Shown: positions 1-11,549 of the stretch, piece by piece
Numbering within the stretch: position 1 is the first letter of the stretch
How the letters are laid out: each line of letters opens with the position of its first letter
Source: Waterburya sp.
GTDB taxonomy: Bacteria > Cyanobacteriota > Cyanobacteriia > Cyanobacteriales > Xenococcaceae
Length of the DNA stretch: 64,000 bases
Direction of reading: 5' to 3'
Assembly (NCBI GenBank): GCA_965217895.1
Contig: CBDCJV010000002.1
Span: 1,088,001 to 1,152,000, forward strand
The notes under the pieces: model-generated
The model's database searches: none
Told to the model about the DNA's origin: nothing
Seen by the model: the letters and a program-made list of their open reading frames with translations, nothing else
Made by a program: the position numbers and the translations under genes

Positions 1-2262
1 GAAAAGATCAATCTCAAACTCAGAGGGATGAGTTGTGCTTCTTGTGCCAGCAGTATCGAAGAAGCGATTAATAATGTGCCTGGAGTGGCGGAATGTAACG
101 TCAACTTTGGTGTCCAACAAGCTGCAATTAAATATAATCCCAGTCAAACCAGCATTGAAGACATTCAAGAGGCAGTAGAAGAGGCAGGATACTCGGCTTA
201 TTCTCTCCAGGAACAAGAGATGGTTACGGGAGAAGACGATCGCGAACAAGCAGCACGTAAAGCCGAATCTCGCGATTTGATTCGTAAAATGATTGTTGGT
301 GGCGTAATTAGCGTCATTTTAATTATTGGTTCTTTACCAATGATGCTGAGATTGAATTCACCTTTTATCCCTGCATGGTTGCACAACCCCTGGCTACAGT
401 TAATTCTAACTGCGCCAGTACAGTTTTGGTGTGGCTACAGGTTTTATGTCGGTGCGTGGAAATCCTTTAAGCGTCATGCTGCAACGATGGATACTCTAAT
501 TGCTTTGGGTACGAGTGCAGCATATTTCTATTCGTTATTCGCTACCATCTTTCCTGGTTTCTTTCTCAGCCAAGGCTTGATGCCAGAAGTTTACTACGAA
601 ACCGCAGCCGTAGTTATCACTTTAATTTTACTAGGGCAGTGGTTTGAGAATCGGGCAAAGGGACAAACCTCAGATGCCATTCGTAAAATGATGGGTTTAC
701 AGGCAAAAGATGCCAGGGTAATTCGTAACGGAAGAGAAATAGATGTTCCCGTTAATGAAGTACAAATTGACGACATCATCTTAGTTCGCCCTGGAGAAAA
801 GATTCCTGTAGACGGGGAAATCATTAGCGGTAATTCCACTATTGATGAAGCGATGGTAACGGGAGAAAGTATTCCCGTTAAAAAGCAAGCAGGGGATGAA
901 GTTATTGGTGCAACTATTAACAAGACAGGTAGTTTTAAATTTAAGGCTACCAGAGTTGGTACGGACACAGTATTAGCGCAGATCGTTCAACTGGTGCAGG
1001 ATGCCCAAGGTTCAAAAGCACCTATACAAAGATTAGCTGACCAAGTAACGGGCTGGTTTGTACCCGTGGTAATTGCGATCGCCATTGCTACTTTTGTCAT
1101 CTGGTTTATTATTATGGGCAATGTGTCTCTGGCTTTGATTACAACAGTTGGGGTGTTAATTATTGCCTGTCCCTGTGCATTAGGTTTGGCTACTCCCACT
1201 TCCGTCATGGTAGGTACTGGTAAAGGTGCAGAAAACGGAATTTTAATTAAAGATGCAGAGAGTTTAGAATTGGCTCATAAACTGCAAACTATTGTCCTCG
1301 ATAAAACTGGCACGATTACGGTCGGAAAACCCACTGTTACCGATTACAATACCGTTAGAAATGTTAGCGATCGCGCAGAATTAAAATTATTACGCTTAGT
1401 CGCAGCAGTCGAACGTAATTCCGAACATCCTTTAGCCGAGGCGGTAGTAAGATACGCCCAGTCACAGGATATTGAACTACCAGAAAGCAATGATTTTGAA
1501 GCAGTAGCAGGTAGCGGAGTACAAGGAACTGTTTCAAATCGCTTAGTACAAATTGGTACTCAACGCTGGATGTCTGAGTTGGGGATCGAAACCGATACTT
1601 TACAACAACAAAAAGACATTTGGGAAGCTGAAGCCAAAACCGTAGTGCTAATTGCCGTAGATGGCGAACTAGAGGGTATTATGGGTATTGCCGATGCGGT
1701 CAAACCTTCTTCCACCGCAGCCGTCAGGGCATTACGTAACTTAGATTTAGAAGTAGTAATGCTGACAGGAGATAATCAAAAAACAGCAGAAGCGATCGCC
1801 CGTCAAGTGGGTGTAGTGAGAGTAGAAGCCGAAGTACGCCCCGACCAAAAAGCAGCCAAGATAAGGGAACTACAGCAGGAAGGTAAAACCGTTGCAATGG
1901 TAGGAGACGGTATTAATGATGCCCCTGCACTAGCTCAAGCGGATGTAGGAATTGCCATTGGTACGGGAACGGATGTGGCGATCGCAGCTAGTGATATTAC
2001 GCTCATTTCGGGAGAGTTACAGGGTATTGTTACGGCAATTGAGTTGAGTAAAGCAACTATGAATAATATTCGTCAAAATCTCTTTTTTGCTTTTATTTAT
2101 AACGTCATTGGTATTCCCATTGCAGCAGGGATCTTGTTTCCTTTGTTTAGCTGGTTGCTCAATCCAATTATTGCAGGAGGGGCGATGGCGTTTAGTTCGG
2201 TTTCGGTCGTAACTAATGCTTTGCGATTACGTAATTTTAGTCCATCAAAATCCAGAATTTAA
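1..2262 (+). CDS. Copper-translocating P1B-type ATPase (CopA/PacS-like); start lies just upstream of the window
   Basis: Frame is open from base 1 ([18 protein letters not shown] motif). Also [29 protein letters not shown] and MAFSS motifs. Confidence 0.95.
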
Positions 2263-7843: not shown

Positions 7844-9538
7844 TTAGCTTACGGTTGAAGCCAAAAAATTATCGACTTGGGCAAGCTGATAATCTGGGAT
7901 GCAGTTATGCTCCATATAAAAGCGATATTCATCTTTGGCGCGATCGCATTGTTCTGTAGTCCAGTCACAGTACCTTTGCAGTATATTTGTAATTGTAGGC
8001 AATAAATTCATACCGTAATGACCATTCATTGCCAAAGTGGTACGACGACGCATAATATCTACTAAAGTATGGGCAAATTCTCTTTCGACAGCGTAGACTA
8101 TCTGAGCTTTAATATCTAAGACATTGGGACTTAAAGGCTCACCTAAATCAGGGTTGTCTTTAATTAAAGCCAAAACTTCTAAGGCTCTAGCACCATAAAT
8201 TGAAAATAAATGATAAATAGTATTAGCTGTCAAAGTTGAGTCATATTCTAGAATTGCCTGCTCAACCCGTGAATCGCTAGGCAGAATACACCCAGGCAAA
8301 GGCAGAGAATCGGTTTGACATGGCTTTGGCGATCGCTTTGTACGTTTGAGAATATCATCTACCATTTCTTCGCCGACGTTGCGATAGGTGGTTAACTTGC
8401 CACCAATCAGGGTAAGTAAGTTGTTAACGCCCTCTTTCTTATGATCGAAAATAATATGTTTACGGGTAATGCTACCTGGCTTTTTGCCCTCAGAGTTCGG
8501 TAGAGGACGGACTCCAGAATAAGTAAACTTGATATCATCTCGTCCCAAATTAGCGGTAGGAACAATGCTATTTGTTTCTCTCAACAAATAATCAATTTCT
8601 TCATCATTAGCTTTAATATTTTCGATGTCATCTTTATAAGGTATGTCCGTAGTGCCAATCAAATACATACCTAACCAAGGAACAATAAAGAAAGGACGAC
8701 CATCTGATTTTGCTTCCACGTATAAAGTCGAACCTGGCGCACCAGGAAAGGGATCTACGACAATATGACTTCCTTTTGTACTACCATTTTTCTGAGTATT
8801 ACCAATTGACTTTTTATTTCCCTCTTTACTACCCAATTGACAGACGCGATCGATCCAAGGTCCTGCGGTATTGATTACCATTGCGTTAGCACTACCCGAA
8901 ATGGTAAAGCTTTCTCCCGTCAGCTTATCTTTACAAACAACATCGGTGATACGGGAGTTTTTAAGCGGAAGCTCAGTAACTTCAACATAGTTAAATATGG
9001 TCGCCCCAGCATTTTGCGCCGAGATAATATTTTCCAAGCAAAGACGCTCTGCTAAAGTAACCTGTCCATCATAATATTGTGAACCACCTGCCAAATCATC
9101 ATCATCAAGAGAGCGAAATAGCTGTTTAAACTTTGCTTTGGGTAGCATTCGATGAACGGGTAAAGTCTTATCAAAGCTAAAAATATCGTAAAGAATCATC
9201 CCTGCCCAAATTTTCCAATAGGGACGAGAGCGATCGCGATAAATGGGTATAGTTAACTGAAGAGGAGTAACCAAATGCGGGGCGTTACGCAGCAACACTT
9301 CTCTTTCTTTTAAAGATTCTCTGACTAACGGAAATTCAAAATACTCTAGATAGCGTAAGCCACCGTGAATCAAGCGGGTAGACCAGCTAGAACTACCGCT
9401 AGCAAAATCATTCTTCTCCACCAAGATTGTTTTTAAACCCCGCAAAGCTGCATCTCTCGCCACACCTGCACCATTGATTCCGCCGCCAATAATAATTACG
9501 TCGTAGTCTGTTTGTTGAATTTGAGCAAAATCTCGCAT
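7844..9538 (-). CDS. glpD: FAD-dependent glycerol-3-phosphate dehydrogenase
   Basis: IIGGGINGAGVARDAALRG, STRLIHGGLRYLE, GVRPL and GGKLTTYR motifs. Confidence 0.95.
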   Translation of the reverse strand: MRDFAQIQQTDYDVIIIGGGINGAGVARDAALRGLKTILVEKNDFASGSSSWSTRLIHGGLRYLEYFEFPLVRESLKEREVLLRNAPHLVTPLQLTIPIYRDRSRPYWKIWAGMILYDIFSFDKTLPVHRMLPKAKFKQLFRSLDDDDLAGGSQYYDGQVTLAERLCLENIISAQNAGATIFNYVEVTELPLKNSRITDVVCKDKLTGESFTISGSANAMVINTAGPWIDRVCQLGSKEGNKKSIGNTQKNGSTKGSHIVVDPFPGAPGSTLYVEAKSDGRPFFIVPWLGMYLIGTTDIPYKDDIENIKANDEEIDYLLRETNSIVPTANLGRDDIKFTYSGVRPLPNSEGKKPGSITRKHIIFDHKKEGVNNLLTLIGGKLTTYRNVGEEMVDDILKRTKRSPKPCQTDSLPLPGCILPSDSRVEQAILEYDSTLTANTIYHLFSIYGARALEVLALIKDNPDLGEPLSPNVLDIKAQIVYAVEREFAHTLVDIMRRRTTLAMNGHYGMNLLPTITNILQRYCDWTTEQCDRAKDEYRFYMEHNCIPDYQLAQVDNFLASTVS

Positions 9539-9622
9539 AAAGCAGGTTCTATATAGTTCAATATTGTTAATTAATTACTTATAACTTAACTAAATTAGAA
9601 ATCAAATTCTACATAACATCTT

Positions 9623-10140
9623 TTGACTGCTCACCCGCATGAATGACGGGTGATTCTAGCTATTAGCTTTCAGCTATTAGCTTTTAGCTTTTGATTAAGA
9701 GCATTTATCATTCTAGAAACTTCATTTATCTTATCTGTTAGTAGCTGAGATTTGCTATTATCTAAATATCCTAAATCTCTGGCTATTAATATTTGACACT
9801 TAACTTCACAAGCGCTACCTTGTGCTATGTCTAGAAAACGACTAAATTCTTTATCCCCATTGCGTCCACAGCCCTCGGAAATATTAGATTCAATCGATAC
9901 AGATGCTCTTCTTATTTGATTGGTTAAACCGACCTTTTCATCGGTTGGAAAATCTTTAGTTATTTTGTATAAGTTAACAGTGAAATTATGTGCTTTTTGC
10001 CATACTTTGAGTTGCGTGAAGTCTTGCATTAAATTAAGTATTAACTATTAGTTAATATTGTATACAAAAGCTAAAAGCTAAAAGCTAAGAGCTAACGCAA
10101 AGTCACCTTAGAAGGATGAGGCTTTAAACCCAGAGCGACG
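9623..10140 (-). mobile_element. Putative non-autonomous IS200/IS605-derived element (left and right ends) carrying a four-helix-bundle passenger gene
   Basis: Minus strand begins TTAC|CGTCGCTCTGGGTTTAAAGCCTCATCCTTCTAAGGTGACTTT (left-end-like hairpin) and ends GAATCACCCGTCATTCATGCGGGTGAGCAGTCAA (right-end-like hairpin plus TCAA). No tnpA or tnpB. Confidence 0.6.
9670..10029 (-). CDS. Four helix bundle protein (23S rRNA intervening-sequence protein / Avd-like family)
   Basis: L.VWQKA, FP.DE..GLT.QIRRAS.SI.SNI.EG.GR and F.RFL.IA.GS..E signature. Confidence 0.92.
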   Translation of the reverse strand: MQDFTQLKVWQKAHNFTVNLYKITKDFPTDEKVGLTNQIRRASVSIESNISEGCGRNGDKEFSRFLDIAQGSACEVKCQILIARDLGYLDNSKSQLLTDKINEVSRMINALNQKLKANS

Positions 10141-10258
10141 GTAAGAGCTAACGATTGTTCGCCCCTACCCAAAACTTAATCTGTTGCCAACTTTATTTGA
10201 CTTGGTATAACTACAGACTTTTCTTCAACATTACTCGTACACAATCTATACCCCTAGC

Positions 10259-10367: not shown

Positions 10368-11549
10368 ATGAAGCGACATAATCCAGATTCATTTTTGATC
10401 AAAGCGACTCTGTTACTAATTAGTACCTTGACTGTCATGGCTGGGGCAGCGATCGCGCCGTCCTTACCAGCAATGGAAAAGCATTTTGCCGATGTGGAGA
10501 ATGCCGAATATTTAGTCAAATTGGCTTTGACTATCCCCGCTTTATTTATTGCCCTTTTTAGCTTCATAGTCGGAATGTCAATCAACAGCATTGGACGTAA
10601 GCCATTGCTGTTGGTTTCAACTTTACTCTTTGCCTGTGCAGGAAGTGCGGGTTTTGTCTTAAATTCCTTATGGGCTATTATCTTGAGCCGAGTCTTAGTT
10701 GGTCTATCGGTAGCGGGAACAATGACTGGGGTAATGACGATTATCAGCGACTACTATCAGGGTCAAAAGCGTGCCAACTTTATGGGTCTACAAGCTGCTT
10801 CTATGGGTTTTGGAGGGATGGTATTTGCGGCCGCTGGAGGAATAAGTGCCGATTTTAACTGGCGTTTTCCTTTTTTAATTTACTTATTGGCTTTTTTCGT
10901 TTTTATTTTAGTAGCGATCGCCATATACGAACCCGAACCAGACAAGATTAGGAATACCAAACGTCAAGCTTTTGTGCTACCCAAAGAATCAATTGGCATA
11001 ATCTATGCTTTAGGACTAATTTATATGGTTGCTTACTATTTAATTTTTGTGCAGCTACCGTTTTATCTACAAGAAATTAGTAATGCCAGCGCAGCCCAAA
11101 GCGGTATAGCCCTGGCGATTTCCACCTTAGCAGGGGCGATCGCCTCTTCTCAATATGGCACGATTAAAAAACATCTCGATTTTAGCAGCATCATAATTAT
11201 TGCCCTGGCATTGACGGCAGTTGGTCAATTTATTATGGGGTTTGGAGACAGCTATCGAATAGAGTTGTGCGGTTTGATCATTGGCGGAGTGGGATTTGGT
11301 CTAATTATGCCTAACTTTAGCAACTGGCTGGCGACTATTATGCCCAATCATCTTCGTGGTCGAGCTTTGGGCGGATTAACCACTTTCTTATTTTTGGGTC
11401 AGTTTATTTCACCAATTATCAGTCAACCGATTATCAAAGTTGTCGGCTTTGCTAATACCTATAGCTTGAGTGCTATTTTACTGCTACAGCTAGCCATAAC
11501 ACTTTTGGTAGTCAAAATTTCCACGGCATTTATCGCCGAGAAAATTTGA
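10368..11549 (+). CDS. Major facilitator superfamily transporter (drug:H+ antiporter-like)
   Basis: About 12 hydrophobic segments; motif A-like G..INSIGRKPLL; WRFPF. Confidence 0.88.
   Translation: MKRHNPDSFLIKATLLLISTLTVMAGAAIAPSLPAMEKHFADVENAEYLVKLALTIPALFIALFSFIVGMSINSIGRKPLLLVSTLLFACAGSAGFVLNSLWAIILSRVLVGLSVAGTMTGVMTIISDYYQGQKRANFMGLQAASMGFGGMVFAAAGGISADFNWRFPFLIYLLAFFVFILVAIAIYEPEPDKIRNTKRQAFVLPKESIGIIYALGLIYMVAYYLIFVQLPFYLQEISNASAAQSGIALAISTLAGAIASSQYGTIKKHLDFSSIIIIALALTAVGQFIMGFGDSYRIELCGLIIGGVGFGLIMPNFSNWLATIMPNHLRGRALGGLTTFLFLGQFISPIISQPIIKVVGFANTYSLSAILLLQLAITLLVVKISTAFIAEKI

What the first reader, a model, noticed from the sequence alone, without database searches (positions are those of the whole stretch)
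9623..10140. Four-helix-bundle (IVS/Avd-like) gene packaged between IS200/IS605-type ends, without tnpA or tnpB
On the minus strand the order is: TTAC; a left-end-like segment with hairpin (CTGGGTTTAAAGCCTCATCCTTCTAAGGTGACTTT); a heptamer array; the 119-aa four-helix-bundle ORF; a second heptamer array; then GAATCACCCGTCATTCATGCGGGTGAGCAGTCAA (seen). IS200/IS605 elements insert 3' of a tetra/pentanucleotide (TTAC for IS608), have subterminal hairpins and end in TCAA or TCAC. Their right end is also the 3' part of the TnpB guide-RNA scaffold (established). The ORF sits where, and in the orientation that, tnpB would. This looks like a ~520-bp non-autonomous Y1-mobilised cassette carrying a protein family otherwise known from 23S rRNA intervening sequences and related to DGR Avd. 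It offers a possible mechanism for the scattered distribution of these genes (inference). This is the best candidate for an undescribed system in the window.
Basis: partly seen in the sequence, partly recalled or inferred. Interest (0 to 1): 0.8.

Follow-up and report, generated by a model that had tools for sequence, protein, structure and literature searches.

The report
IS605-ended mini-transposon carrying four-helix-bundle gene
A small gene of unknown function, bracketed by mirror-image 7-base repeats, sits between intact IS605-type transposon ends with no transposase gene; gene-less copies of the same shell are strain-specific insertions in this cyanobacterium and relatives carry the gene in such shells, so the gene likely hitchhikes when a transposase is supplied from elsewhere.

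Summary
Observation confirmed. The 518-nt unit (10140-9623, minus strand) has IS608-type geometry: TTAC target, AAAG guide at +16..19, GAAT guide, hairpin, AG, TCAA. It holds a TIGR02436 gene between inverted heptamer arms. It belongs to a genus-wide family of gene-less miniatures (PATE-like); three have empty sites without duplication in relatives. Relatives hold tnpA+tnpB elements with like ends; this genome has no IS200/IS605 TnpA over the cut-off.

It is not a one-off: 8 of 34 loci of this gene's sub-clade abut IS605 ends (5 both ends; 2 in this orientation, 3 inverted), against 0 of 57 others, all at unrelated sites. But the arms belong to the gene family (63 of 93 loci). The same sub-clade also sits in TIR-type miniatures, and no near-identical gene-bearing copies were found. 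IS605 shells are one vehicle, not the general cause of the scattered distribution. The tnpB-position and guide-RNA ideas are not supported.

This scan noted such genes in IS200-type and other shells on other DNA (unchecked notes); my paper searches found no description. New variant of a known kind; transposition of the gene-bearing form is inferred.

The parts
10141..10144 (-). Target tetranucleotide TTAC (left cleavage site, outside the element)
   Evidence: retained unduplicated at empty sites of sister miniatures; IS608 CL (PMC5934647)
10096..10140 (-). Left end: 15 nt, guide AAAG (10125-10122, +16..+19), imperfect hairpin (about 10119-10103)
   Evidence: scores 42.2 bits on a model built only from gene-less miniatures; fold
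10066..10095 (-). 5' heptamer arm (TTAGCT(C/T) type)
   Evidence: (I1-I4, D8)
10030..10065 (-). AT-rich leader that opens with a 9-10 nt motif shared by the sub-clade (possible -10 box; not called as a promoter)
   Evidence: motif in 13 of 31 sub-clade leaders, 0 of 72 others; promoter scan negative here
9670..10029 (-). 119-aa four-helix-bundle gene (TIGR02436 / PF05635, S23p-type), intact
   Evidence: PDB 2gsc E 3e-20; below the Avd cut-offs (NF033474 27.6 vs 80; PF22296 29.8 vs 40)
9657..9693 (-). 3' heptamer arm, inverted copy of the 5' arm; overlaps the last codons and the stop
   Evidence: I1, I2; arms pair in the predicted DNA fold
9623..9656 (-). Right end: guide GAAT (-34), hairpin 9652-9632, AG at the hairpin foot, terminal TCAA
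   Evidence: 30.9 bits on a model from gene-less miniatures; same 34 nt in a gene-less miniature of G023 (L173)
9616..9622 (-). 7-nt 3' flank that follows the target position in the empty allele of G023; a rearrangement breakpoint lies just beyond

Best explanation
This is a transposase-less IS605-group element whose interior is a heptamer-armed four-helix-bundle gene cassette, likely captured by such shells several times and likely moved as a unit by a TnpA supplied in trans. Shown: IS608-type ends; a genus-wide family of gene-less shells with the same ends and inner heptamer arms; insertion of three shells 3' of TTAC without duplication; autonomous tnpA+tnpB elements with like ends in relatives; the same gene sub-clade inside such ends at eight unrelated sites, in both orientations. 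Established for the family: TnpA excises the top strand as a single-stranded circle and pastes it 3' of the target chosen by the AAAG guide (PMC3201880, PMC5027513). Inferred: arm-to-arm recombination swaps or flips the cargo between shells that share a heptamer type; pairing of the arms brings both ends together on single-stranded DNA, which would favour such shells; the gene is a passenger and not the mobilising enzyme; the element is dormant here because no TnpA is left.
For: Geometry (against PMC3201880, PMC5934647). Empty sites of three gene-less copies and three near-identical copies at separate sites. 11 of 14 right-end hits in the genome have a heptamer array within 45 nt, against 3.1% of random places; 20 of 26 left-end loci across the genus do. 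L357 carries tnpA (NF033573, 129 bits) and tnpB (NF040570, 314 bits) between like ends. 8 of 34 sub-clade loci against 0 of 57 others abut these ends; their flanks share no tblastx match. The label needs 5 changes on a quick tree, at least 4 forced by starred branches. The sister of enclosed L035 sits in a TIR-type shell. G023 shows the 7 nt that follow TCAA directly after the target position.
Against: No two near-identical gene-bearing copies were found (63-88% amino-acid identity to the focal protein), so recent transposition of the gene-bearing form is not shown. Of the five two-ended copies only this one is canonical at both ends with an intact gene. The focal empty site rests on 7 nt and a one-base difference in the target (TGAC in G023), beside a rearrangement. 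The genome has no IS200/IS605 TnpA over the cut-off. No autonomous element with exactly this left end was found among 70 of 267 tnpA matches examined. The tree is a quick one on 119 columns, and kin are not independent.
Confidence: 0.55

Rival explanations
1. Resident gene-less shells were inserted first, and the armed cassette entered them later by recombination between matching heptamer arms or by its own insertion route; the gene-bearing form never transposes.
For: Gene-less shells are far more common (at least 9 complete ones in this genome). The arms belong to the gene family whether or not IS ends are present (63 of 93). No multi-copy gene-bearing element was found. L040 has a left end on both sides, as recombination between two shells would give. 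PATEs are known targets of other small elements (PMC3119063).
Against: Sister genes L038 and L041 share the same arm-to-right-end junction at unrelated sites; L037 and L078 share the inverted layout at unrelated sites. No gene-less shell was seen at the focal site in G023, G020 or G019.
Confidence: 0.25
2. One ancestral event replaced tnpA/tnpB by the armed cassette; the gene-bearing element is the founder, and the gene-less shells are its internal deletions, with arms changing in concert and ends often lost.
For: All 7 end-bearing genus loci fall in one 26-row sub-clade. A leader-like motif lies between the arms of 7 of 33 gene-less shells (1 of 33 reversed; 1.3% in shuffles). Truncated gene-bearing shells exist (L209/L296 and L319).
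Against: At least 4 gains or losses are forced. Shells carry several unrelated heptamer types that match arms of other gene sub-clades. A gene of another sub-family in this genome also abuts a left-end stub. The 7 motif-bearing shells are kin, and the motif begins with arm-like letters.
Confidence: 0.15
3. The right end serves as an RNA-guide scaffold and the four-helix-bundle protein stands in for TnpB as an RNA-binding effector.
For: The right end resembles that of tnpB-bearing elements; in 2 of 5 two-ended copies the ORF lies upstream of it in the same sense.
Against: 3 of 5 copies are inverted; the arm abuts GAAT, leaving only the terminal hairpin; no Rfam family at the gathering score; most members of the gene family lack these ends.
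Confidence: 0.04

Closest known systems
PATEs, palindrome-associated transposable elements (Haloquadratum; PMC3119063, passages read; PMC4810608, passages read)
   Same: IS605-type ends, subterminal hairpins, no terminal inverted repeats, no target duplication, no transposase, strain-specific insertions, often hit by other small elements; mobile in lineages where tnpA is missing or broken.
   Different: [quoted passage not shown]
IS608 / IS605 group of IS200/IS605 (PMC3201880, PMC5934647, PMC5027513; passages read)
   Same: TTAC target 19 nt before the left hairpin, AAAG and GAAT guides, AG at the foot of the right hairpin, terminal TCAA.
   Different: No tnpA or tnpB; right tail 9 nt instead of 10. 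PMC10691335 (passages read) says these elements were not known to carry cargo genes and reports rare cargo beside tnpB, not in place of both genes.
ORF-bearing 23S rRNA intervening sequences, S23p (PMC4990558; abstract and introduction read); XCC0516, PDB 2gsc
   Same: [quoted passage not shown]
   Different: Not in rRNA; lies between glpD and an MFS gene, inside transposon ends; RNase III processing not tested.
Mobile insertion cassettes (MIC; recalled, and named in scan notes; search listing only)
   Same: Passenger gene between IS ends without a transposase.
   Different: The MICs I recall use DDE-type inverted-repeat ends; this one uses single-strand Y1 ends.
DGR accessory protein Avd
   Same: Weak profile similarity (NF033474 E 2.8e-6; PF22296 E 8.7e-7).
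   Different: Far below both cut-offs; no reverse transcriptase among the neighbouring ORFs listed.

Membership tests
IS200/IS605 (IS605 group) ends | Left end: target tetranucleotide, guide 16-19 nt inside, subterminal hairpin | tested here: met
   TTAC, AAAG at +16..19, hairpin match IS608 (PMC3201880, PMC5934647)
IS200/IS605 (IS605 group) ends | Right end: GAAT guide, hairpin, AG, terminal TCAA | tested here: met
   guide at -33 to -36 in 18 ends, stems with changes on both sides at stem positions 2, 3 and 5
IS200/IS605 (IS605 group) ends | Insertion 3' of the target with no duplication | tested here: met
   Three gene-less copies have empty sites: one exact in two genomes, two with slightly diverged 3' flanks; focal site probable
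IS200/IS605 (IS605 group) ends | Ends shared with an element that encodes Y1 TnpA | tested here: met
   L357, L152, L153: similar, not identical; none in this genome
Autonomous IS605 or IS1341-type element | Encodes tnpA and/or tnpB | tested here: not met
   Only ORF is TIGR02436
IS200/IS605 (IS605 group) ends | TnpA-dependent single-strand excision and circle formation | not testable with these tools
   Needs a cleavage or junction assay; contigs cannot show rare circles
PATE | IS605-type ends, no transposase, no duplication, multi-copy | tested here: met
   Met by the gene-less relatives and, for ends and lack of transposase, by the focal element
PATE | Encodes no protein | tested here: not met
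   Intact 119-aa gene; 42 synonymous vs 11 non-synonymous codon differences against L075
TIGR02436 / PF05635 four-helix-bundle proteins | Profile score over the curated cut-off | tested here: met
   131.8 vs 24; 139.7 vs 33.8
23S rRNA intervening sequence | Located within an rRNA gene | tested here: not met
   Flanked by glpD and an MFS gene; no rRNA match
DGR Avd | Score over the Avd cut-off | tested here: not met
   27.6 vs 80; 29.8 vs 40
OMEGA (TnpB guide RNA locus) | Full guide-RNA scaffold upstream of the right end, expressed as a small RNA | tested here: inconclusive
   Only the terminal hairpin remains; expression could not be examined

The most novel reading that the evidence does not exclude
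The heptamer-armed four-helix-bundle module is a selfish unit that spreads by being exchanged, through its arms, into the empty shells of unrelated transposon families (IS605 single-strand ends and TIR-type ends in this one sub-clade), with the Avd-like protein binding the arm hairpin and helping capture or transposition. The armed gene-less miniatures and part of the 535 heptamer arrays of this genome are then its debris.
Probability: 0.2. Interest if true: 0.8.

Novelty: new variant of a known kind. Interest (0 to 1): 0.52.

Why it matters
IS200/IS605 elements were described as nearly free of cargo (PMC10691335), and their miniature forms as non-coding (PMC3119063, PMC4810608). Here single-strand transposon ends enclose a passenger gene in place of both tnpA and tnpB, repeatedly within one genus. 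It gives a concrete, assayable route by which the unexplained S23p-type genes and their heptamer arms can spread; PMC4679880 notes that no transfer mechanism is evident for such heptamer repeats. The element has canonical ends and a candidate transposase (L357), so the idea can be tested with standard IS608 assays. It does not reveal what the protein does, and it covers only a minority of the family's loci.

Tried and rejected
Plasmid blastn with each end: no informative match. Rfam: nothing at gathering score. Promoter and terminator scan: 3 promoter-like sites vs 3.3 expected, none on the leader; no terminator. The genome's single tnpB has ends that did not match the models; its single Y1 hit is a truncated gene with RAYT-like motifs (label from PMC6006769 passages and recall), so neither is taken as the partner. 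Exact left-end pattern: 2 of 151 genomes of the order, both of this genus; 16 of 39 in the genus with 2 mismatches. Empty-site searches: flanks of one miniature map to separate places in relatives, another found nothing; enclosed copies L037 and L035 map to empty intergenic regions here but are too diverged for a junction. Degenerate right ends suspected by eye at L031, L211, L212 scored under 5 bits and are not counted. Sequencing runs: no RNA holder listed; contigs showed no joint that skips exactly the element, and contigs drop rare variants. The careful tree did not finish; the quick one was used. Four papers asked for by recalled identifiers were not held, so two IS reviews and a paper on small cyanobacterial repeats were not seen and may bear on novelty. 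No structure prediction was run, since a solved relative exists. No supplements were read.

Full report
Setting. The window is G000:C2:1088001-1152000 of a 5.3-Mb genome. The closest named records of the protein are cyanobacterial, several titled Pleurocapsa. The element lies between a glycerol-3-phosphate dehydrogenase gene (7844-9538, minus) and an MFS gene (10368-11549, plus).

Observation. All parts are present as described. The unit from 10140 to 9623 is 518 nt. The ORF is a TIGR02436 / PF05635 protein with a solved relative, XCC0516, and it scores far below the Avd cut-offs. The two arrays are inverted copies and pair in the predicted single-strand fold. The ends repeat IS608 geometry as given in PMC3201880 and PMC5934647 (passages read): TTAC, AAAG at +16..19, hairpin; GAAT, hairpin, AG, TCAA. 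Stems of 18 right ends pair in 83 of 90 cells, with changes on both sides. A strict geometry rule gives 4 pairs in the chromosome and 0 in one random control.

The shell is a family. Profile searches of the genome gave 30 left-end and 18 right-end hits at E up to 10. I picked 18 left ends by hand; 17 print TTAC or TTAT at the target position, and the eighteenth was a coordinate slip that shows TTAC. The models contain TTAC, so this count is partly circular. At least 9 are complete gene-less shells of about 110-290 nt, and three are near-identical. The non-circular evidence is empty sites: for the copy at C2:4907896-4908100, G019 and G017 join TTAC directly to the 3' flank; two further copies show the same in G023 with slightly diverged flanks. 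Two other attempts gave no junction. The family is genus-wide: a right-end pattern occurs in 11 of 39 genomes and a left-end pattern in 16 of 39, with 0 control hits, but in only 2 of 151 genomes of the order. Heptamer arms are part of it: 11 of 14 right-end hits have an array within 45 nt against 3.1% at random, and 20 of 26 left-end loci do.

Transposase. This genome has no IS200/IS605 TnpA over the cut-off, only a truncated RAYT-like gene, and one tnpB with other ends. In the genus 27 of 39 genomes have TnpA over the cut-off. I examined 70 of 267 matches; L357, L152 and L153 carry tnpA and tnpB between ends like these. L357's right end is the closest. None has exactly the focal left end.

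The cargo. I examined 98 of 194 PF05635 matches in the genus. After dropping 5 with short flanks, 63 of 93 have inverted heptamer arms, against 0 of 500 random places. So arms plus gene form a unit that exists without IS ends. Seven of the 98 abut IS605 ends; all lie in one 26-row sub-clade but need 5 changes, at least 4 forced (quick tree). With models built only from gene-less shells, and 9 loci added, 8 of 34 sub-clade loci scored 11 bits or more beside an arm, against 0 of 57 others (best 2.8). Five have both ends: this one and L213 in the same orientation, L035, L037 and L078 inverted. Their flanks are unrelated. Three more cases lie outside that count: two truncated genes (L209/L296, L319) and a split gene of another sub-family in this genome, so the restriction to one sub-clade is not absolute. 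The same sub-clade also sits in TIR-type miniatures (both sides in 3, one side in 5 of 107 loci). None of 9 loci from 8 other genomes of the phylum had these ends.

The focal site. G023 matches the 5' flank and continues, after TGAC, with the same 7 nt that follow TCAA here. That fits insertion without duplication, but a rearrangement breakpoint follows at once, so the junction is short.

How it most likely works. Shown are the ends, the shell family, its insertion rule, the like-ended autonomous elements and the repeated enclosure. From the family's known chemistry, TnpA would peel the top strand off as a circle and paste it 3' of TTAC (PMC3201880, PMC5027513; passages read). I infer that shells and cassettes with matching heptamer arms exchange or flip their interiors by recombination, that arm pairing brings the ends together, and that the protein is a passenger. 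Against this: no near-identical gene-bearing copies, decayed ends in the other four two-ended copies, and no TnpA in this genome. The main rival is that the cassette entered shells already in place and never moved with them (0.25). A single gene-bearing founder (0.15) has some support from a leader-like motif in 7 of 33 gene-less shells. A guide-RNA role is unlikely (0.04).

Comparison and novelty. It works like a PATE (PMC3119063, PMC4810608; passages read) but fails the non-coding criterion; it is not an rRNA intervening sequence (PMC4990558; abstract and introduction read) and not an Avd. PMC10691335 (passages read) calls cargo in these elements rare. Ten full-text searches (listings) turned up no description of this gene between IS605 ends; PMC4679880 (passages read) has no mention of the gene family, and PMC3542288 and PMC6006769 (passages read) describe cyanobacterial miniatures and Y1 classes without it. 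Subscription reviews and ISfinder were not seen. This scan has noted armed cassettes many times and such genes inside IS200-type, ISL3, IS66 and ISKra4-like ends on other DNA; these are unchecked notes, one marked as partly fallen, and I tested none of those loci.

Verdict. A real, non-autonomous IS605-group element with a passenger gene: new variant of a known kind, interest 0.52.

Noticed in passing
window 9616-9622; G000:C2:2538296-2538655; L061-L063: A rearrangement breakpoint lies 7-8 nt beyond the right end. In G023, G019, G020 and G017 glpD follows a different gene (likely ggpS, by recall); here that gene lies about 1.44 Mb away and glpD follows the cassette in the same direction.
   Followed up: partly
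G000:C2, 29 paired hits, e.g. 650272-650477, 952603-952800, 1208788-1208998; L039, L080, L077: A second miniature family with 17-nt terminal inverted repeats and apparent target duplications, many with heptamer arrays inside. Its ends flank the same gene sub-clade on both sides in 3 and on one side in 5 of 107 loci; L039 has an empty site on contig C1. The parent transposase was not identified.
   Followed up: partly
G000:C2:5147530-5156767: A four-helix-bundle gene of another sub-family is split by a 9-kb island of integrase-like genes; a left-end stub abuts its 3' arm.
   Followed up: partly
L007/L074 (G001:C83) and L213: Group II intron-like insertions (reverse-transcriptase ORF in L007): one inside the enclosed gene, one inside the right-end hairpin.
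   Followed up: no
window 10141-10168: The target TTAC is the last four bases of a GTAG-type palindrome; its last 12 nt before the C repeat the start of the 5' arm (direct repeat D11), unlike the G023 allele.
   Followed up: no
G000:C2 whole: 535 period-7 arrays against 3 of period 5 and 39 of period 8; only 12 inverted pairs under a strict threshold.
   Followed up: partly
G000:C2:3012375-3012716: Closest paralogue (75% identity) has inverted arms of another heptamer type, no IS605 ends and an in-frame TGA.
   Followed up: yes
L180, L182, L258 flanks: Several gene-less miniatures also lie near synteny breaks relative to close genomes.
   Followed up: no
window 9616 (run X2): A contig of a run that holds this stretch continues into the relatives' upstream sequence, so that sample seems to hold a second strain or allele with the ancestral layout.
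   Followed up: no
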